Positions 7,594-53,604 of a stretch of DNA of 64,000 nt are shown in pieces. The stretch's first letter is position 1. Each line of letters begins with the position of its first letter. Made by a program: the position numbers and the translations under genes. Source of the stretch: Microvirga sp. (GTDB taxonomy: Bacteria; Pseudomonadota; Alphaproteobacteria; Rhizobiales; Beijerinckiaceae); the NCBI GenBank assembly GCA_036263675.1, contig DATAGO010000053.1:48902-112901 (forward strand), written 5' to 3'. The notes below the pieces were generated by a model. It made no database searches and was not told the DNA's origin. It was given only the letters and a program-made list of their open reading frames with translations.

Positions 7594-9624
7594 ATGAAGA
7601 TCCGCAACATCCTCCTCGCCCTCATCGCCTTCCTGGGCGTCGCGCTGATCGCCACCGTCGCGCTCCAGATCCGTGGCGAGGTCAGGGATTACCGGGAGGC
7701 GCAGCGGCTTTCGGCCTCGAACGCGGCACGGGAGCAGCTTCTGCGGGCCTCCGCGGCCCTGGCCGACGAGCGCACCGAAACCTACGGGCACCTGCTCGAT
7801 CCGGTGCGCCGCCCCGGCCTGCCGCCGGGGGTCGAGGCCGCCCGAGGGCGGGTCGATGCCGCACGGGGCGCCGCCGAGGCGCTCATCCGCAAGGACACCG
7901 ACCGCCTGAGCCACGCGGGGTCGAGCCTCCAGACGCTCGCCCATGTCGACCGGGAACTGAAGGGCCTGCGCGCCCAGGCGAACGCCGCCCTCGCCGCGAC
8001 CGACGCCGCCGAGGGTCGACGGCTCGCGCCGCGCTGGTTTTCCGAGGTGACCCGGATCCTCGAAGAGGCCCAATCCCTGCGCCTGACCCTGCTGCAGCAG
8101 GAACGATCGCCGGATCCCGCGGCCCGCGCGGAGGCCTTGCTGCGCTACTATTCCGGCCTCCTCGCCGAGGCCGTCGCCCGCAATCACGCCCTGCTCACCC
8201 AGGCGCTCGCAGGCCGGGCCGGCCTCGGCGGCGCGGAGCTCGACGCCGCGAGCCGGAACGTCGGGCGGGCCCAGCTTGCCTGGGAGCTGATGAACGAGCA
8301 GCTCACCGCGCCCCTCGACCCGGGCGTCCGGGCAAGCCTGACCGCCGCGCGCGGGCAATACGCCACCGCGCTCAGCCCCTTGCAGGAGACGCTCCTGAGC
8401 TCCCTGCGGGGCCGCGCCTGGTCGTCCATCACCGCGGACCAATGGTCCGATGCCGCCCAGGCGGCGCTGCAGACGATCACGCGGTTGCAGGAGGATCTCC
8501 TGCGAAGCTCCCGCGAGCGCCTCGACGCCCAGGTGAGCCGGGCGCTGGGGTCGCTCGTGCTGTGGACGGCCCTCCTGCTCGCCGGGATCGCCGCCGTTTT
8601 CGCGAGCGGGCTCTTCGTCAGCCGACGGATCGTGTTCCCGCTCGAGGCGCTGCGGCGCGCCATGCTGCGCCTGGCCGAGAACGATCTTGCGACCCCCCTG
8701 CCGCGCTTCGCCCGGATGGACGAGATCGGCGAGATGAGCGACGCGCTGCGCGTCTTCAAGGCGAACGCGGTGCGGCGCCACCGCCTGCAGGAGGACAAGG
8801 AGACGCTGCACGCGCGCCTCACGGACACGTACCGCCAATTGCGGGCGGACCTCGACGCGGCCGCCACGATTCAGGCCGCGATGCTCCCCGCTCCCGCTTC
8901 GATCGCGGGCGTGCGGTACCGCGGCCTCTACCGTCCTTCCAGCGTGATCGCAGGCGACACCTACAACGTCCTCAAGCGCAACGACGGCCGCATCGGGTTC
9001 TTCCAGGTCGACGTCGCCGGGCATGGGGCGCCCGCGGCCCTCATCTCCGTGGCCTCCCACCATTCCCTGTCGCAGGCCCTCCTCAAGCAGGCGGACGGCA
9101 TGCCGATCGAGGCGGTGGCGGCGCAGATCAACGACGACTGGCCGGAGGATCTGCCCTATTTCACGATGGTTCTCGGCGAAATCGACTCTCGGACCGGGCG
9201 CGGCGCCATCGTGCAGGCCGGACACCCGCCCCCGCTCCTGATCGGGCGCGACGGCGCGGTGCGCGCCATCGGGGAAGGCGGGCTTCCGATCGGGATGTTC
9301 GCGGGGGCGCAGTTCGATCCGGTCGCGTTCGACGTCGCCGAGGGCGATCGCCTCGTGCTCTATTCCGACGGACTGGTCGAAGCCCACAGCCCGTCCGGGG
9401 AGATCTTCTCGGAGGAGCGCCTGCTCGAGCTGGTGCAGTCCCGGGCCGATGCGGCCACGGAGACGCTCCTCGACGCCATCGATTCGGCGGTGCGGATCTG
9501 GTCCGGCGCCGACACTCTCGAGGACGACCTGAGCGTTCTGGTGCTGGAGCGCCTGCCGAGGCCCGTGCGGGGTCCGGCACTGCGCGCAGACGCGTCACGG
9601 GATCGCGCAGATGCGGTGGGTTAG
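7594..9624 (+). CDS. HAMP domain-containing PP2C/SpoIIE serine phosphatase (RsbU-like)
   Basis: Start at ATG 7594 (MKIRNILLALIAFLGVALIATVAL). It has a helical periplasmic-type sensor, a second TM helix, a HAMP domain (PLEALRRAMLRLAENDLATPLP...EIGEMSDALRVFK) and a SpoIIE/PP2C core (AGDTYNV...FFQVDVAGHGAPAAL...VQAGHPPPLL...LVLYSDGLVEA...DDLSVLVLER). Confidence 0.8.
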   Translation: MKIRNILLALIAFLGVALIATVALQIRGEVRDYREAQRLSASNAAREQLLRASAALADERTETYGHLLDPVRRPGLPPGVEAARGRVDAARGAAEALIRKDTDRLSHAGSSLQTLAHVDRELKGLRAQANAALAATDAAEGRRLAPRWFSEVTRILEEAQSLRLTLLQQERSPDPAARAEALLRYYSGLLAEAVARNHALLTQALAGRAGLGGAELDAASRNVGRAQLAWELMNEQLTAPLDPGVRASLTAARGQYATALSPLQETLLSSLRGRAWSSITADQWSDAAQAALQTITRLQEDLLRSSRERLDAQVSRALGSLVLWTALLLAGIAAVFASGLFVSRRIVFPLEALRRAMLRLAENDLATPLPRFARMDEIGEMSDALRVFKANAVRRHRLQEDKETLHARLTDTYRQLRADLDAAATIQAAMLPAPASIAGVRYRGLYRPSSVIAGDTYNVLKRNDGRIGFFQVDVAGHGAPAALISVASHHSLSQALLKQADGMPIEAVAAQINDDWPEDLPYFTMVLGEIDSRTGRGAIVQAGHPPPLLIGRDGAVRAIGEGGLPIGMFAGAQFDPVAFDVAEGDRLVLYSDGLVEAHSPSGEIFSEERLLELVQSRADAATETLLDAIDSAVRIWSGADTLEDDLSVLVLERLPRPVRGPALRADASRDRADAVG

Positions 9625-45583: not shown

Positions 45584-46714
45584 ATGCTCCCGAAGGGGCG
45601 CGACCGGATCGGCGTGCCCCCTGCCGACCCCCGGTCCCGCACCCGCCGAAGACGGGCTCCCTCCGTGACGCAAACCCCGGCCATCCCGCCCTCCCCCGTC
45701 CGCAGCCTGGGGCTCCGGGTCGGCGACCTGCCGAGCGGGCCGCGCAACACCCTCGCCGACGTCGCGGGCGTGACGGTCGGCCACCGCACGCTCGCGACGG
45801 GCGCGCTGCGCACCGGCGTCACCGCCATCATGCCTGCGCCCGGCAACCTGTTCCGCGAGAAGGTGCCGGCGGCCTGTCACGTCATCAACGGCTTCGGCAA
45901 GAGCGTCGGCCTCATGCAGGTCGAGGAACTCGGGACGCTGGAGACGCCGATCCTGCTCAGCAACACCTTCGCGGTCGGCACCTGCGCCAACGCCCTGATC
46001 CGCCGGGCGATCGCCGAGAACCCGGAGATCGGGCGCCGGACCTCGACCGTGAATCCGGTCGTGTGCGAGTGCAACGACGGTTACCTCAGCGACATCCAGG
46101 CCATGGCGGTGAGCGAGGCGGACGCGCTCGCCGCGCTCGACGCCGCCGAGGTGAGCTTCGCGCGCGGTTCCGTCGGCGCCGGCACGGGCATGAGCGCCTT
46201 CGGATTCAAGGGCGGGATCGGCACGGCGTCGCGCGCCTTGAGCTTCGGAGGGGCCGCGTATCACGTGGGCGGGCTCGTGCTGGCGAATTTCGGCCGCGCC
46301 GGCGACCTCGTTCTCCCGGACGGCCGGCGCGTTGCGCCGCCATCGGCCGCGGCCGCGCCGGAGCGCGGCTCGGTGATCGTGGTGATCGGAACCGATATCC
46401 CGCTCGACCATCGCCAGCTCACGCGGGTCATCCGCCGCAGCGGCGTCGGGCTGGCGCGGCTCGGCGCGTTTTGGGGCCACGGCAGCGGCGACCTGGCGCT
46501 CGGCTTCACCACGGCGGCGCGCATCCGCCACGACGGCGGAGGCGACTTCCAGGACCTGCGCATGCTCGCCGAGCGCCACATCGACCGGCTTTTCCAGGCC
46601 GTCGCCGAGGTCACGCAGGAAGCGGTGCTCGATGCCCTTCTGACCGCCGATTCCATGACGGGGCGGGACGGCCACGAGCGCCCGTCGCTGCGGGAGGTCC
46701 TGGCGAACGCGTGA
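45584..46714 (+). CDS. P1/S58 family peptidase (DmpA / L-aminopeptidase D-Ala-esterase-like)
   Basis: Motifs NTLADVAGVTVGH, TGVTAIMP, ECNDGYLSDI and GSVGAGTGMSAFGFKGGIGTASR. The start is uncertain. ATG 45584 comes from the track, and GTG 45665 is also possible. Confidence 0.8.
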   Translation: MLPKGRDRIGVPPADPRSRTRRRRAPSVTQTPAIPPSPVRSLGLRVGDLPSGPRNTLADVAGVTVGHRTLATGALRTGVTAIMPAPGNLFREKVPAACHVINGFGKSVGLMQVEELGTLETPILLSNTFAVGTCANALIRRAIAENPEIGRRTSTVNPVVCECNDGYLSDIQAMAVSEADALAALDAAEVSFARGSVGAGTGMSAFGFKGGIGTASRALSFGGAAYHVGGLVLANFGRAGDLVLPDGRRVAPPSAAAAPERGSVIVVIGTDIPLDHRQLTRVIRRSGVGLARLGAFWGHGSGDLALGFTTAARIRHDGGGDFQDLRMLAERHIDRLFQAVAEVTQEAVLDALLTADSMTGRDGHERPSLREVLANA

Positions 46715-46749: not shown

Positions 46750-46790
46750 GAAAAGAAAACGGGGCCGGCGCCTCGTCGGCGCTCGACCCC
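46750..46790 (-). terminator. intrinsic terminator (minus strand)
   Basis: Minus-strand RNA reads GGGGUCGAGCGCC-GACGA-GGCGCCGGCCCC, followed by GUUUUCUUUUC. The stem is 12 bp with one bulged A and a G-U pair, and it is more stable on the minus strand. Confidence 0.55.
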
Positions 46791-47000
46791 GCTACTCCAC
46801 GCATTATCGACTGGTGATCGGTAATGAACAGACCGGATGCGCCCTGCCTCAGCCCCCATCGGAGGGCGCCGTTCCGATCTGCGCGGGCCTGTAGCAGGCG
46901 TTTTCCTGCCACGCTGATTAGACTTTCGGGTCGTCCGCCGTCAGGCTCGACGCTGTCCGCCGCCCCGCATCGATCGGGCTCGCGCCGTTCGGGCGAGCGC

Positions 47001-47162
47001 TCAGTTCAGCCCGTGCAGGTGCATCTTGGCGTCCCACATCTTCGCATGCTTGCGACGATTCCACCGCAGGCCCGCATAGAACCCGGCCCCGAACACGGCT
47101 GCGGCGAGGCCGAGGATGACGATGCTGTCTTGAACGATGAGGGGGACGGCGATCAGCGGCAC
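47001..47162 (-). CDS. small membrane peptide (53 aa), family member 1
   Basis: Not in the ORF track. GTG at 47162 is preceded by GAAGGA. It reads VPLIAVPLIVQDSIVILGLAAAVFGAGFYAGLRWNRRKHAKMWDAKMHLHGLN. Third positions are GC-rich. An in-frame TAG lies two codons upstream of the GTG start. Confidence 0.45.
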   Translation of the reverse strand: MPLIAVPLIVQDSIVILGLAAAVFGAGFYAGLRWNRRKHAKMWDAKMHLHGLN

Positions 47163-47311
47163 GGGCTATCCTTCGTGGATCCGACTGACCACAGGTCACC
47201 TTAGGTCATCGCGGCACGGATCGGCGGGAAATCTCCCGCGGCATATGCGCGATGCGGTGCGGGACGGCCGGCGATCGGAAGCTGAGGCGCCGCGTCGGGC
47301 TCAGCGCCGCA

Positions 47312-47344
47312 CCAAAAGGAAAGCCCCGCCGAGGCAGGCGGAGC
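47312..47344 (-). terminator. intrinsic terminator (minus strand), family T
   Basis: Plus strand reads CCAAAAGGAAA-GCCCCGCC-GAGGCA-GGCGGAGC. On the minus strand this is a hairpin with one mismatch, followed by UUUCCUUUUGG. Confidence 0.5.
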
Positions 47345-47501
47345 CCGGTCGGGATCGTGGGATCCGAGCCGAGGTCCGTGGACGATGGCCGAGGTCTCGA
47401 ACTCGGCTGCGGCTGTAGCGCCCGTCCTTGCAACGTCAGGCAATCGTCTGCGACGGATGGGCCAACCGCAGGTTCCAGGCGCAGCGGTGCCGCGGGGCGG
47501 G

Positions 47502-47675
47502 CTATGGAAGCACCGCGCCCGGCCGGCGCACGAAGGTTTCGCTGCCGCGTGCCCCATAGCCGTAGCGGCGTGCGGCCTCGCGATGGCGGCGTCGGGAGAT
47601 GCAGTCACGAACGATGTAACCGGCGCCGAAACCTGCGGCGACGAACGGAGTCGAGACGACGAGGAGTTCGAGCAT
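47502..47675 (-). CDS. small membrane peptide (57 aa), family member 2
   Basis: This is the internal ATG of track ORF 47502-48029, preceded by AAGGGAA. It reads MLELLVVSTPFVAAGFGAGYIVRDCISRRRHREAARRYGYGARGSETFVRRPGAVLP and is paralogous to the 48106-48231 peptide. Confidence 0.5.
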   Translation of the reverse strand: MLELLVVSTPFVAAGFGAGYIVRDCISRRRHREAARRYGYGARGSETFVRRPGAVLP

Positions 47676-48025
47676 CGGTCGTTCCCTTTTCCTCGGCGGT
47701 TGGACGGGAAGAGTCGGTGACCATGGGAGTTTCACAGGAAACACCTGGGGATCAATGCATGGCGACAGCCTAGGTCGTCGGGGATTCCGTCGCGTCACGG
47801 TCCGGCGCCGCATGCTGACGAAAAGGTGTGCCGCGACCGCGGGCGGTTCGGGAGGAACGGGCCTCCTCCCGGAGGCGCTCCGGCCGGGCGGTTCATGGTT
47901 CGACAGGACGAACCATCCCTGCCCGGCCGACCGGCCGATGCGGCAGGACGATCCGCGGCGAAGGACGGCCCTGCGGTGCTCCCGGCGCGGCCCGCCGGTC
48001 ACGCCCGACAGGGCGCTTGCATCAG

Positions 48026-48059
48026 CCAAACAAAAGCCCCGCCCGGCGAGGGCGGGGCT
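48026..48059 (-). terminator. intrinsic terminator (minus strand), family T
   Basis: Plus strand reads CCAAACAAAA-GCCCCGCCC-GGCGA-GGGCGGGGC. On the minus strand this is a perfect 9-bp GC stem followed by UUUUGUUUGG, 47 nt after the stop of the 48106-48231 ORF. Confidence 0.65.
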
Positions 48060-48105
48060 GGAGGTCGTCTCTCGCCGTTGGGGGCCGGGAGAGACTGCCG
48101 TCCGG

Positions 48106-48231
48106 TCAGATGTAGCCGAACCGGTTGGGCGCGGCGCGGCGCCGGCGCTGGGCCATCCGGTCGCGGACGAGAGAGGAGCCCGTGAAACCGGTGGCGAAGA
48201 TCATCAGGACGAGAGACACGAGAGCGAGCAT
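48106..48231 (-). CDS. small membrane peptide (41 aa), family member 3
   Basis: This is the internal ATG of track ORF 48106-48309, preceded by a strong SD (GGGGAGGA, 5 nt spacing). It reads MLALVSLVLMIFATGFTGSSLVRDRMAQRRRRAAPNRFGYI. GC3 is high, and a hairpin plus terminator lie downstream. Confidence 0.55.
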   Translation of the reverse strand: MLALVSLVLMIFATGFTGSSLVRDRMAQRRRRAAPNRFGYI

Positions 48232-48726
48232 CGATCCTCCCCTTCTTTCGCGCGGCCCGGATCGCCGCCGCCGACGCAACCTGTCGTAGCGAAATTGTCG
48301 GTACGTCATTCAAGCCGCGACGCTCACCTAAGCTGTTCGGCCGATCCCGCTGCGTCAGCGCGCGACCTCCACCGACGATGCGGGAGCCGCTGCGATCCGG
48401 ACGCGTCGCTGCCGCCCAGGCCGCCGCGTTGTTCGTCCGAGAGTTGCATCCGCCCTTCGCGCGCAGCCGATGGCGCAACCCGGTTCATGGTCGGCCGGGT
48501 GCTCGGCCGCGGGCGGACCCGCACCACTCAATGCCTCTTCAAGGAGCGCCTGACGGCCGCATGCAGCGCGCCGGCGGTGCGGGCATGATCAGCCGCATCG
48601 GCCGTTCGATCGCGCAGGTCTCCGGGACGGAGGCGATGACGGCTTGCCGCCCGGCCCCGACGAGACCGCGCCTCGTGCCAGGACGTCCCGCGGCCGGGGC
48701 CTGGCGGCAGCGATCCATGCCATCCG

Positions 48727-48759
48727 CCAAAAGAAAACCCCGCCGGTGAGGGCGGGGGG
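48727..48759 (-). terminator. intrinsic terminator (minus strand), family T
   Basis: Plus strand reads CCAAAAGAAAA-CCCCGCC-GGTGAG-GGCGGGG. On the minus strand this is a 7-bp GC stem followed by UUUUCUUUUGG. Confidence 0.6.
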
Positions 48760-48890
48760 AAGTCGTAGGAGCCGTCTCAGGGTCGGGTGAGACGCCTCGA
48801 CCTTAACCTTACGTCACCTGCGATGGCCACACGGCCGGGCGGCCTAAGCCTGTGCCCGCCTCTGCCGGACGCGGCGCGGCCGCGAGCCGA

Positions 48891-49028
48891 TCAATCGATG
48901 GCCCGGTTCATCGCGTAGATGGAAACCACCGCGCAGACAGCCGAGCTCAGGATTCCCAGAAAGGCAGTATCGGCCGCAGGCATCGAGCGACAGTTGAAAT
49001 AACCGAACAGTTCGCACCACCATTCCAT
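48891..49028 (-). CDS. small Cys-containing membrane peptide (45 aa)
   Basis: This is the internal ATG of track ORF 48891-49367, preceded by TAGGAGGAA. It reads MEWWCELFGYFNCRSMPAADTAFLGILSSAVCAVVSIYAMNRAID. It is unrelated in sequence to the other three peptides. Confidence 0.45.
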   Translation of the reverse strand: MEWWCELFGYFNCRSMPAADTAFLGILSSAVCAVVSIYAMNRAID

Positions 49029-49295
49029 GGCAGAGCTTCCTCCTAGTGTTAATGGTCTCCTTCTACGAGGATCGATCCACCAAACAACTCGTCCGCGAGA
49101 CCTAGAACGGACCTGGCTCTCACTCCCGTCGAACGAGGATCCGGCGCGGGAGAACCTTCGGCGCCGCAATGGCGATCCTCCCGGCACGGGGCAAGCGCGG
49201 CGCGCTATACGGGATGACAAGCCGCAGGCCGGGCCGGTGCCGGGCGCCTGGATTTCGAGCCGAGCGGCGCCGATCCGGCCGCGGACGCCTTCCCG

Positions 49296-53528: not shown

Positions 53529-53604
<76 letters not shown>

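What the first reader, a model, noticed from the sequence alone, without database searches (positions are those of the whole stretch)
46750..49060. Array of four stand-alone tiny membrane-peptide genes in a 2.7 kb gene-poor stretch
No track ORF between the DmpA-like gene (ends 46714) and the first PF04392 binding-protein gene (49394) looks like a real gene. They show weak third-position bias, or they run through terminators. Reading the minus strand by hand gives four short ORFs: 47001-47162 (53 aa, GTG, GAAGGA upstream), 47502-47675 (57 aa, AAGGGAA), 48106-48231 (41 aa, GGGGAGGA) and 48891-49028 (45 aa, TAGGAGGAA). Each encodes one hydrophobic helix. The first three continue into a basic tail, while the fourth ends in a short polar tail. 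Each has GC-rich third positions like the bona fide genes nearby, and each is followed on the same strand by a GC hairpin plus U-tract (46750-46790, 47312-47344, 48026-48059, 48727-48759). A short hydrophobic peptide in its own transcription unit with long structured UTRs is the layout of type I toxins or small stress-induced membrane proteins. I cannot match any of them to a named family.
Basis: partly seen in the sequence, partly recalled or inferred. Interest (0 to 1): 0.7.

Follow-up and report, generated by a model that had tools for sequence, protein, structure and literature searches.

The report
Four stand-alone tiny membrane-protein genes
A 2.7 kb stretch of a soil Microvirga genome carries four separately transcribed genes for 41-57-residue membrane peptides; two belong to a conserved but unnamed family, three share an unusual promoter layout, and nothing yet shows they are toxins.

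Summary
They are the only hydrophobic 35-70 aa ORFs in the 64 kb window.

They are not newly found genes. Public annotations of this Microvirga MAG already call all four as hypothetical proteins.

- **p2 and p3** are paralogs in a real, unnamed family (M..LL...iF.AGF..GY.VR..ISRRRHREA.RR). A profile search found 55 clusters, all from metagenomes. There is no Pfam, NCBIfam, PHROG, PADLOC or PDB match. Codon changes point to purifying selection.
- **p1** has one 92 %-identical ortholog and may be a remote relative of that family.
- **p4** is an orphan.
- **Shared promoter.** p2, p3 and p4 share an upstream module, YTAGG-N13-TTGWWY followed by a -10-like hexamer. It occurs 3 times against 0.00 expected, and it recurs upstream of family genes in other contigs. 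It implies short 5'UTRs and co-regulation.
- **Type I toxin reading.** The peptide shape fits, but I found no antisense partner and no homology to known toxins. Toxicity is untested.

Best reading: co-regulated small single-pass membrane proteins of unknown partner. Moderate interest.

The parts
47001..47162 (-). p1: 53-aa ORF with GTG start (MPLIAVPLIVQDSIVILGLAAAVFGAGFYAGLRWNRRKHAKMWDAKMHLHGLN). One hydrophobic segment followed by a basic tail.
   Evidence: ORF and SD GAAGGA. GC3 is 0.87. Called as a gene in public assemblies. A 92 %-identical intact ortholog, P0005, lies on L089, with 5 synonymous and 4 non-synonymous codon changes. hhalign against the p2/p3 family gives probability 64 %. 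The family HMM does not score it.
47163..47270 (-). p1 upstream region, highly conserved in the relative L089. The promoter was not identified.
   Evidence: About 96 % identity over roughly 100 nt upstream of the GTG, against 93 % in the CDS and about 85 % in the 3'UTR. It lacks the YTAGG-N13-TTG module. The spacing does not fit the RpoE/ChrR consensus TGATCC-N16-CGTA.
46750..46790 (-). p1 intrinsic terminator
   Evidence: Long GC hairpin followed by UUUUCUUUU; -34.2 kcal/mol, z = -4.07.
47502..47675 (-). p2: 57-aa member of the unnamed GF..GY.VR..ISRRRHR family
   Evidence: Homologs P0002-P0004 and P0011-P0013. Profile search. Against L085 over 40 codons, 16 of 23 differences are at position 3, with 14 synonymous and 6 non-synonymous codon changes. 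The AlphaFold2 model is a single helix 2-44 with pLDDT >= 90 for about residues 1-30.
47728..47774 (-). p2 promoter module: CCTAGG box, 13 nt, TTGATC (-35-like), 16 nt, GAAACT (-10-like)
   Evidence: The same layout lies upstream of homologs on L085, L086-88, L090-95, L104-107 and L108.
47311..47346 (-). p2 intrinsic terminator
48106..48231 (-). p3: 41-aa paralog of p2, of the 41-aa subtype that ends in GY[ILR]
   Evidence: tblastn of p2 against p3 gives 40 % identity over 40 aa, E = 9e-6. Family HMM score 51.8 bits. Same-length relatives P0014, P0016 and P0028. GC3 is 0.90.
48285..48332 (-). p3 promoter module: CTTAGG box, 13 nt, TTGAAT, 17 nt, GCTACG (a weak -10)
48026..48059 (-). p3 intrinsic terminator, preceded by a second hairpin at 48063-48095
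   Evidence: One search gives -48.6 kcal/mol and z = -3.9 for 48020-48105.
48891..49028 (-). p4: 45-aa orphan ORF (MEWWCELFGYFNCRSMPAADTAFLGILSSAVCAVVSIYAMNRAID). The hydrophobic helix is C-terminal and there is no basic tail.
   Evidence: ORF with a strong SD, AGGAGG. Its only database match is itself. Local GC is about 0.60. Codon-position GC is 0.48/0.49/0.71. Its 3'UTR is 93 % conserved on L089.
49060..49106 (-). p4 promoter module: TCTAGG box, 13 nt, TTGTTT, 16 nt, TAGAAG
   Evidence: Third of the three window matches to YTAGG-N13-TTGWWY, against 0.00 expected. Sequence read.
48728..48757 (-). p4 intrinsic terminator, preceded by the hairpin GUCUCA...UGAGAC
46880..46930 (.). Conserved 50-nt block in the p1 3'UTR. 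On the plus strand it reads as a weak hairpin followed by GTTTTCC.
   Evidence: One mismatch in 50 nt against L089. Plus-strand terminator-like hit at 46887-46899.

Best explanation
The stretch holds four independently transcribed genes for small single-pass membrane proteins. It does not hold a longer gene or a pseudogene.

**p2 and p3.** They are paralogs of a conserved, so far unnamed family. An N-terminal transmembrane helix starts at Met1 and carries an invariant small-xxx-small/GxxxG-type motif (G15-F-x-x-G19-Y20). It runs on as one helix into an arginine-rich juxtamembrane segment (V-R23-x-x-I-S-R-R-R-H-R-E-A-x-R-R).

**Inferred mechanism.**
- By the positive-inside rule, the peptides insert with the N-terminus out and the C-terminus in.
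- They use the GxxxG face to pack against another transmembrane helix, either their own or that of a partner membrane protein.
- The basic tail lies on the cytoplasmic membrane surface.
- In this way they would modulate a membrane protein or a membrane property, as other bacterial small membrane proteins do.

**Regulation.** p2, p3 and the unrelated p4 share a promoter module: a CTAGG box, 13 nt, a TTGAA-like -35, 16-17 nt, and a -10-like hexamer. The three are therefore probably switched on together, by a sigma-70-family holoenzyme plus a factor that reads the CTAGG box.

**p1.** It has the same peptide shape and may be a distant relative, but it has a different, unidentified promoter.

**Shown:** the ORFs, SDs and terminators; the p2/p3 paralogy; family conservation with purifying selection; the shared upstream module and its specificity; the single-helix model.

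**Inferred:** transcription start sites, topology, partner binding, co-regulation and physiological role.
For: - **Anatomy.**
- **Already called as genes.** Independent pipelines call all four.
- **Family is real.** The profile of p2, p3 and three homologs found 55 cluster representatives at E <= 1e-3 among 1.84 billion proteins, 7 of them at E <= 1e-10. Sequences not in the query are included, for example P0014 at 6.8e-11 and P0016 at 5.4e-9. In the 32-sequence alignment G15 and R23 are invariant, and F16, G19, Y20, S27 and R30 are >= 90 % conserved.
- **Purifying selection.** For p2 against L085, 14 codon changes are synonymous and 6 non-synonymous, and 16 of 23 nucleotide differences fall at position 3.
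- **Structure.** AlphaFold2 gives one helix over residues 2-44 with pLDDT >= 90 over the first 30 or so residues.
- **Promoter module in the window.** YTAGG-N13-TTGWWY occurs 3 times against 0.00 expected, each time on the minus strand upstream of p2, p3 or p4. This is despite CTAGG being depleted five-fold in the window, 7 sites against 37 expected.
- **Promoter module elsewhere.** The same layout lies upstream of family genes on L085, L086-88, L090-95, L104-107 and L108, with -10-like GATAGT, GAATAT or GGATAT. The strict form, CYTAGG-N13-TTGA, is absent from the 80 other alphaproteobacterial loci.
- **Stand-alone genes.** Family genes sit in varied neighbourhoods with no conserved partner gene. 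Other tiny hydrophobic ORFs or a second family copy are sometimes nearby.
- **No long gene hidden here.** The longer overlapping ORFs have no Pfam hits.
Against: - There are no expression data of any kind, so promoters, start sites and translation are all inferred.
- p4 has no homolog at all. Its coding status rests on the SD, the codon-position GC and the promoter-terminator frame.
- p1 is not recognised by the family HMM, and its promoter is unknown.
- The -10-like hexamers of p3 (GCTACG) and p4 (TAGAAG) are poor.
- The CTAGG box could belong to an alternative sigma factor's promoter rather than being a regulator site.
- No partner protein can be named, because the gene neighbourhood is not conserved.
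- The peptide shape fits pore-forming type I toxins equally well.
Confidence: 0.55

Rival explanations
1. Type I toxin-antitoxin modules. Each peptide is a membrane-damaging toxin whose mRNA is held in check by an antisense or divergently encoded sRNA, hidden in the long spacers or overlapping the UTRs. The array arose by the lineage-specific duplication typical of such loci.
For: The peptides meet the search criteria of Fozo et al. 2010 (PMC2887945): <= 70 aa, one transmembrane region, a charged or aromatic C-terminal cluster, related copies in one intergenic stretch, and long distances to flanking genes.

Unexplained spacers of 250-400 nt lie upstream of the p2, p3 and p4 promoters.

One plus-strand sigma-70-like site, TTGAAA-N18-CACCAT at 48994-49023, would drive an RNA antisense to the p4 5'UTR.

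A conserved block in the p1 3'UTR has a plus-strand hairpin followed by a short T-run.

The array content varies between relatives.
Against: - No antisense gene could be recognised. No plus-strand terminator lies inside the p2, p3 or p4 units, and the strict promoter scan found nothing.
- Rfam gave nothing above noise.
- p2 and p3 share only 40 % identity, and their DNA similarity outside the CDS is limited to the promoter module. Ibs, Ldr and Zor repeats are much more alike.
- The spacers are not repeated anywhere.
- There is no similarity to known toxin families in Pfam, NCBIfam or PADLOC.
- The family is absent from the plasmids and viral contigs searched.
- The SDs are not clearly sequestered.
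- Toxicity is untested.
Confidence: 0.2
2. One or more of the units, above all p4, act mainly as small regulatory RNAs or dual-function RNAs. In this reading the promoter-to-terminator transcripts of 250-440 nt, with their structured 3' ends, are the active molecules. The ORF is incidental or secondary.
For: - p4 is an orphan ORF, yet its 3'UTR and terminator are 93 % conserved in L089.
- The p3 and p4 3' ends share a two-hairpin layout, and both give weak sub-threshold hits to sRNA models. The 86-nt p3 3' end folds with z = -3.9.
- The p1 5' region is at least as conserved as its CDS.
- Precedent: Pos19, an alphaproteobacterial sRNA that carries a translated small ORF (PMC5036791).
Against: - p2 and p3 are clearly protein-coding by family conservation and their synonymous-change pattern.
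- p4 has a near-perfect SD and codon-position GC asymmetry.
- The Rfam hits are far below gathering scores, 18-21 bits against about 50.
- No comparative data exist to test any RNA structure.
Confidence: 0.12
3. The ORFs are chance reading frames in GC-rich non-coding DNA that gene callers over-predict.
For: - High-GC DNA produces many spurious ORFs.
- p2 and p4 have only moderate GC3.
- p4 has no homolog.
- All are annotated merely as 'hypothetical'.
Against: - Hydrophobic small ORFs are otherwise absent from the 64 kb window.
- All four have an SD and a same-strand terminator.
- The p2/p3 family is conserved across at least 55 clusters under purifying selection.
- The p1 ortholog is intact.
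Confidence: 0.05

Closest known systems
Type I toxins of the Ldr/Fst, ZorO, TisB and Hok kind (criteria from Fozo et al. 2010, PMC2887945)
   Same: They are <= 70 aa with one transmembrane helix and a charged or aromatic C-terminal tail. They are stand-alone genes far from their neighbours, with more than one related copy in a single intergenic stretch.
   Different: No antisense or complementary sRNA was detected. There is no sequence homology. The paralogs share only 40 % identity, with no extended DNA repeat. Toxicity is untested. The family is widespread in soil metagenomes in varied contexts and was found in neither the plasmid nor the viral collection.
Bacterial small membrane-protein modulators such as AcrZ, MgtS, MgrB and SafA (from general knowledge, not tested here)
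   Same: They are 30-65 aa single-pass peptides, often encoded as their own transcription unit under a specific regulator. They act by packing against a larger membrane protein.
   Different: No partner or regulator is known here. There is no homology: Pfam and NCBIfam hits are all below threshold. The arginine-rich ISRRRHR tail and the G-F-x-x-G-Y motif are specific to this family.
Pos19 of Rhodobacter sphaeroides, a stress-induced small coding RNA (PMC5036791)
   Same: It is an alphaproteobacterial stand-alone short transcript with its own dedicated promoter and a translated small ORF.
   Different: Pos19 is driven by an RpoE promoter, TGATCC-N15-GCGTA. That motif is not present here with the right spacing. 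There is no sequence relation.

Membership tests
Type I toxin-antitoxin system (toxin component) | Small (<= 70 aa) protein with a predicted transmembrane helix | tested here: met
   The peptides are 41-57 aa with a KD19 maximum of 1.81-2.18. The p2 model is a single helix.
Type I toxin-antitoxin system (toxin component) | C-terminal cluster of charged, polar or aromatic residues | tested here: met
   The p1-p3 tails carry net charge +5 to +7 and contain W, Y and F. p4 has only the short polar tail NRAID.
Type I toxin-antitoxin system (toxin component) | An antisense or partly complementary sRNA antitoxin encoded at the locus | tested here: inconclusive
   No plus-strand terminator lies in the p2, p3 or p4 units and the strict scan found no promoter. 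A relaxed scan found one weak plus-strand promoter-like site at 48994-49023. Rfam gave nothing above noise. Strand-specific RNA data are needed.
Type I toxin-antitoxin system (toxin component) | Growth arrest or killing when the peptide is overproduced, relieved by the sRNA | not testable with these tools
   This is an experimental test.
Type I toxin-antitoxin system (toxin component) | Sequence homology to a described toxin family (Hok, Ldr, Fst, TisB, Ibs, ShoB, Zor, TxpA and others) | tested here: not met
   The four peptides and 32 family members have no Pfam or NCBIfam hit above threshold. The four peptides have no PADLOC hit.
Unnamed GF..GY.VR..ISRRRHR small-protein family (defined here, alignment A4) | Transmembrane helix starting at Met1, G15-F16-x-x-G19-Y20, R23, and S27-R-R-R30 followed by a basic tail | tested here: met
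   p2 has every conserved residue and scores 90.7 bits. p3 keeps G15, F16, R23 and R30 but has S19, S20 and A27; it scores 51.8 bits. Both were in the alignment the model was built from. Independent support is p2 against p3 at E = 9e-6 and the outside members found. p1 scores 0.3 bits and p4 is not reported, so neither is a member by HMM. For p1 alone, hhalign gives probability 64 %.
Unnamed GF..GY.VR..ISRRRHR small-protein family (defined here, alignment A4) | Upstream module CTAGG box - N13 - TTGAA-like - N16/17 - a -10-like hexamer (high-GC clade only) | tested here: met
   Present for p2 and p3, and also for the non-member p4. Present on L085-88, L090-95 and L104-108. Absent from the lower-GC members L096-L103.
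Described small membrane-protein families in Pfam and NCBIfam (for example LapA_dom, Mitoregulin, BcsF, FixQ) | Score at or above the curated cut-off | tested here: not met
   The best E-values are 0.0016-0.27, in 1-3 of 32 members, all below gathering scores.
Rfam sRNA families | Covariance-model score at or above gathering | tested here: not met
   The best hits in the region score 18-21 bits against thresholds of 42-50. The only hit above gathering in the whole window is a tRNA.

The most novel reading that the evidence does not exclude
p2, p3 and p4 (and possibly p1) would form a dedicated regulon of tiny membrane peptides, switched by an as yet unknown factor that reads a conserved CTAGG box placed exactly 13 nt upstream of the -35 element. 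The GF..GY.VR..ISRRRHR peptides would be a new family of membrane-active effectors. These could be a type I-like toxin family in Hyphomicrobiales-type soil bacteria with a still unseen RNA partner, or a new class of GxxxG-mediated modulators of a membrane complex.
Probability: 0.15. Interest if true: 0.6.

Novelty: new member of a known kind. Interest (0 to 1): 0.35.

Why it matters
Small membrane proteins are under-annotated, and few are understood outside enterobacteria and Firmicutes. This locus gives three things.

- **A family definition.** It defines a conserved roughly 40-residue family that has no Pfam or NCBIfam model. Every member looked up in the source collection (24 clusters) comes from a metagenome or MAG, never from a cultured isolate.
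- **A testable regulatory handle.** The promoter module contains the otherwise avoided CTAGG, is tightly linked to these genes, and is shared with an unrelated tiny gene.
- **Evidence of modular turnover.** Units appear to be gained or lost between look-alike terminators.

If the peptides prove to be toxins or regulators of a membrane complex, the family model and the promoter motif would let others find the whole regulon. As it stands, the locus is an ordinary-looking set of hypothetical small proteins with better than usual comparative support.

Tried and rejected
- **Synteny through the DmpA-like neighbour.** The best relatives are only 69 % identical, and none of the 80 loci carries the peptides.
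- **Named families.** Pfam, NCBIfam, PHROGs, PADLOC and PDB gave nothing for the four peptides or for the family.
- **Rfam.** Only sub-threshold terminator-like hits.
- **A longer real gene on either strand.** Rejected: nine long ORFs have no Pfam hit and no coding-type GC pattern.
- **Mobile or repeated element.** Rejected: the spacers have no copies in the window or in the loci, no plasmid match and no viral match.
- **Metagenome scan with the family.** It returned only 8 loci, of lower GC and without the CTAGG module.
- **Known promoter types.**
  - The EcfG type (GGAAC-N16/17-CGTT, recalled from memory) was not seen by eye.
  - The RpoE/ChrR type (TGATCC-N16-CGTA) resembles the p1 upstream sequence, but the spacing is N12, so I rejected it.
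  - RpoH and RpoD cannot be told apart from the sequence.
- **CCTAGG as a -10 element.** Rejected, because no conserved -35 lies upstream of it.
- **An extended palindrome around CCTAGG.** Present only at p2 and not conserved.
- **SD sequestration in the predicted mRNAs.** Not decisive.
- **Literature search for the peptide motifs.** No paper holds them.


Full report
**Source and setting.** The window comes from a metagenome-assembled Microvirga sp. genome. The p2 peptide is NCBI protein HEX2555002.1, locus tag VHL98_14980. The same 277 kb contig is in JGI sample 3300037833. The region lies between a peptidase S58/DmpA-like gene that ends at 46714 on the plus strand and two PF04392 binding-protein genes on the minus strand from 49394. 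GC is about 0.65-0.74 and dips to 0.60 around 48800-49100.

**Checking the observation.** The four minus-strand ORFs are exactly as described:

| Unit | Coordinates | Length |
|---|---|---|
| p1 | 47001-47162 | 53 aa, GTG start |
| p2 | 47502-47675 | 57 aa |
| p3 | 48106-48231 | 41 aa |
| p4 | 48891-49028 | 45 aa |

- The quoted Shine-Dalgarno strings are there.
- The terminator scan found 9 terminator-like hits against 1.9 expected. They collapse to three minus-strand terminators at the stated places.
- The fourth terminator, at 46750-46790, has an interrupted stem that the scan missed. It folds as a long GC hairpin followed by UUUUCUUUU (z = -4.1).
- Each peptide has one hydrophobic stretch. 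p1-p3 have tails of net charge +5 to +7, and p4 has a neutral five-residue tail.
- Hydrophobic small ORFs are not a background feature of this DNA. Of 156 ORFs of 35-70 aa in the whole window, only two reach a Kyte-Doolittle 19-residue mean of 1.8, and both are in this stretch.
- Codon-position GC is gene-like for p1 and p3 and weaker for p2 and p4.
- The nine longer overlapping ORFs have no Pfam match.

The ORFs are not new discoveries. Gene callers in three public assemblies already call all four, as hypothetical proteins.

**p2 and p3 belong to a conserved family.**
- Within the window, p2 finds p3 at 40 % identity over 40 residues (E = 9e-6).
- The word-indexed protein search found three close homologs of p2, at 60-70 % identity.
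- A profile of these five sequences, scored against 1.84 billion cluster representatives, gave 55 proteins at E <= 1e-3 and 7 at E <= 1e-10. These include sequences that were not in the query, such as P0014 (6.8e-11), P0016 (5.4e-9) and P0017 (2.2e-8).
- Thirty-two of them align without internal gaps over the first 40 or so residues: M-x-x-L-L-(5)-I-F-x-A-G-F-x-x-G-Y-x-V-R-x-x-I-S-R-R-R-H-R-E-A. G15 and R23 are invariant. F16, G19, Y20, S27 and R30 are at least 90 % conserved.
- G15-x-x-x-G19 is a GxxxG-type helix-packing motif. That reading is my own.
- AlphaFold2 with this alignment gives one continuous helix over residues 2-44, with pLDDT >= 90 for about the first 30 residues and a disordered tail.
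- Selection acts on the protein. Between p2 and its homolog on L085, 16 of 23 nucleotide differences in the first 40 codons are at third positions, with 14 synonymous and 6 non-synonymous codon changes.
- No member matches a Pfam or NCBIfam model above threshold. The family profile has no significant PDB match, and the four window peptides have no PHROG or PADLOC hit.
- The family is absent from the plasmid collection and from IMG/VR.
- Every member looked up (24 clusters in all) comes from a metagenome or MAG and is unnamed or 'hypothetical'.

**p1 and p4.**
- p1 has a single relative, P0005 (92 % identity, same length), on a 523-nt forest-soil contig, L089. The reading frame is intact, with 5 synonymous and 4 non-synonymous codon changes. 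This is consistent with coding but weak, because the flanks are equally similar.
- The family HMM does not score p1 (0.3 bits). Ungapped similarity to family members (39-48 % over 27-36 residues) and hhalign (probability 64 %) leave a remote relationship open.
- p4 matches only itself. The case for translation rests on a near-perfect SD, GC3 exceeding GC1 and GC2 by 0.22, and the promoter and terminator around it.

**A shared promoter module.**
- Aligning the p2 unit with four homologous contigs showed a block conserved about 50-100 nt upstream of the start codon, in otherwise diverged DNA.
- Read across all available units, the block is a CTAGG box (usually CCTAGG), exactly 13 nt, a TTGAA-like hexamer, 16-17 nt, and a -10-like hexamer:

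| Unit | -10-like hexamer |
|---|---|
| p2 | GAAACT |
| L085, L108 | GATAGT |
| L086, L090 | GAATAT |
| L104 | GGATAT |
| p3 | GCTACG (weak) |

- The pattern YTAGG-N13-TTGWWY occurs three times in the 64 kb window against 0.00 expected. All three are on the minus strand, upstream of p2, p3 and also p4 (TCTAGG-N13-TTGTTT-N16-TAGAAG).
- CTAGG itself is five-fold depleted in the window (7 sites against 37 expected). Four of the seven sites are in this stretch.
- The strict form of the motif is absent from the 80 other alphaproteobacterial loci, about 1.5 Mb. A relaxed form gives only scattered hits there, without the -35 and -10 context.
- I read TTGAA-N16/17-GAWAKT as a sigma-70-family core promoter. 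RpoD and RpoH types cannot be separated on sequence alone. I read the CTAGG box, centred near -52, as a site for an unknown regulator. The alternative is that the box is part of an alternative-sigma promoter.
- This puts the 5'UTRs at about 23-47 nt, so the long GC-rich spacers (about 250-400 nt) lie upstream of the promoters and remain unexplained.
- Lower-GC family members lack the box, so the module is clade-specific.
- p1 lacks the module. Its upstream 100 nt are about 96 % identical to L089, at least as conserved as its CDS. No known promoter type fits, and the RpoE/ChrR consensus TGATCC-N16-CGTA fails on spacing.

**Array dynamics and context.**
- L089 begins with the p4 3'UTR and a p4-type terminator hairpin. 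It then continues straight into the p1 unit. In that relative, p3 and p2 are therefore missing between p4 and p1, and the junction lies in the terminator U-tract.
- The terminators of p2, p3 and p4 resemble one another (repeat families D1 and D5), which would favour such gain or loss.
- Elsewhere, family genes are single stand-alone genes in unrelated neighbourhoods: DUF1214, Usp and Fer2; AlaRS, GGDEF-EAL and DctP; SnoaL; a Big/hemolysin-type calcium-binding repeat protein.
- Another tiny hydrophobic ORF sometimes lies next to them (L104-107, L108), or a second family copy about 2 kb away (L100-102).

**The type I toxin reading.**
- The peptides satisfy the descriptive criteria used to hunt for such toxins: <= 70 aa, a transmembrane helix, a charged or aromatic C-terminus, related copies in one long intergenic stretch, and distance from neighbours (PMC2887945).
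- The defining partner, an antisense or complementary sRNA, was not found. No plus-strand terminator lies in the p2, p3 or p4 units and the strict scan found no promoter.
- A relaxed scan found a single plus-strand site, TTGAAA-N18-CACCAT at 48994-49023, which would point antisense to the p4 5'UTR. No Rfam family matches.
- The paralogs are far more diverged than Ibs, Ldr or Zor repeats. The SDs are not clearly sequestered, with mean unpaired probability 0.27-0.52.
- None of this excludes the reading, and toxicity is untested.

**Verdict.** The best-supported explanation is four real, separately transcribed small membrane-protein genes. Two belong to a conserved unnamed family, and three are probably co-regulated through a distinctive promoter module. 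Their role in the membrane is unknown; helix-packing modulator is the most likely, and type I-like toxin is possible. This is a new member, or at most a small new family, of a known kind of gene. It has a useful regulatory motif attached, and its interest is moderate.

Noticed in passing
L089 1-100 compared with window 48728-48830 and 47300-47320: In a close relative, the p4 3'UTR and a p4-type terminator run directly into the p1 unit, so the p3 and p2 units are absent there. The junction lies in the terminator U-tract. This suggests gain or loss of units by recombination between look-alike terminators.
   Followed up: partly
window 46880-46930: This 50-nt block in the p1 3'UTR is almost invariant against L089. 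On the plus strand it forms a short hairpin followed by GTTTTCC. It could be the terminator of the convergent DmpA-like gene, which would make the two 3'UTRs overlap by about 150 nt, or it could be part of an antisense RNA.
   Followed up: no
window 48994-49023 (+): This is the only sigma-70-like site on the plus strand of the region (TTGAAA-N18-CACCAT). It lies inside the p4 coding sequence and points antisense to the p4 5'UTR and promoter. No plus-strand terminator was seen downstream.
   Followed up: partly
whole window: CTAGG is about five-fold depleted (7 sites against 37 expected), and four of the seven sites lie in this 2.7 kb stretch.
   Followed up: yes
window 48060-48075 and 48765-48790; L090 about 880-905; L104 about 8245-8265: A GAGAC(G/C)(A/G)C-type stretch lies just upstream of the terminator hairpin in the p3 and p4 3' ends and in the 3' ends of P0014 and P0016. 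It may reflect common descent or a functional 3'UTR element.
   Followed up: no
window 47918-47944 and 48592-48618: A 27-nt inverted repeat, 85 % complementary, links the spacer upstream of the p2 promoter with the spacer upstream of the p3 promoter. The spacers (about 250-400 nt) have no other copies and no coding signal, and their role is unknown.
   Followed up: partly
window 47163-47270: The 100 nt upstream of p1 are at least as conserved against L089 (about 96 %) as the p1 coding sequence (93 %). They include a near-palindrome, GGGAGATTTCCC. No known promoter type fits.
   Followed up: partly
L104 8462-8557; L108 1588-1707; L100-L102: Other tiny hydrophobic ORFs sit next to family genes elsewhere, for example MSNLEILISALILVCGVLFLAAIGVWYWIEFL and MRIRKKTLLLVALILVPLAMEAAFWASFDVNWAIHILPP. 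On L100-102 a second family copy lies about 2 kb downstream.
   Followed up: partly
window 45584-46714 (+): Public annotations disagree on the start of the DmpA-like (peptidase S58) gene, giving 349 aa and 376 aa. Its best relatives in the species-representative genome collection are only 69 % identical.
   Followed up: no
window 53532-53604 (-): A tRNA gene is the only Rfam match above gathering in the window. It lies about 4 kb beyond the two PF04392 genes. I did not examine whether it marks an island boundary.
   Followed up: no
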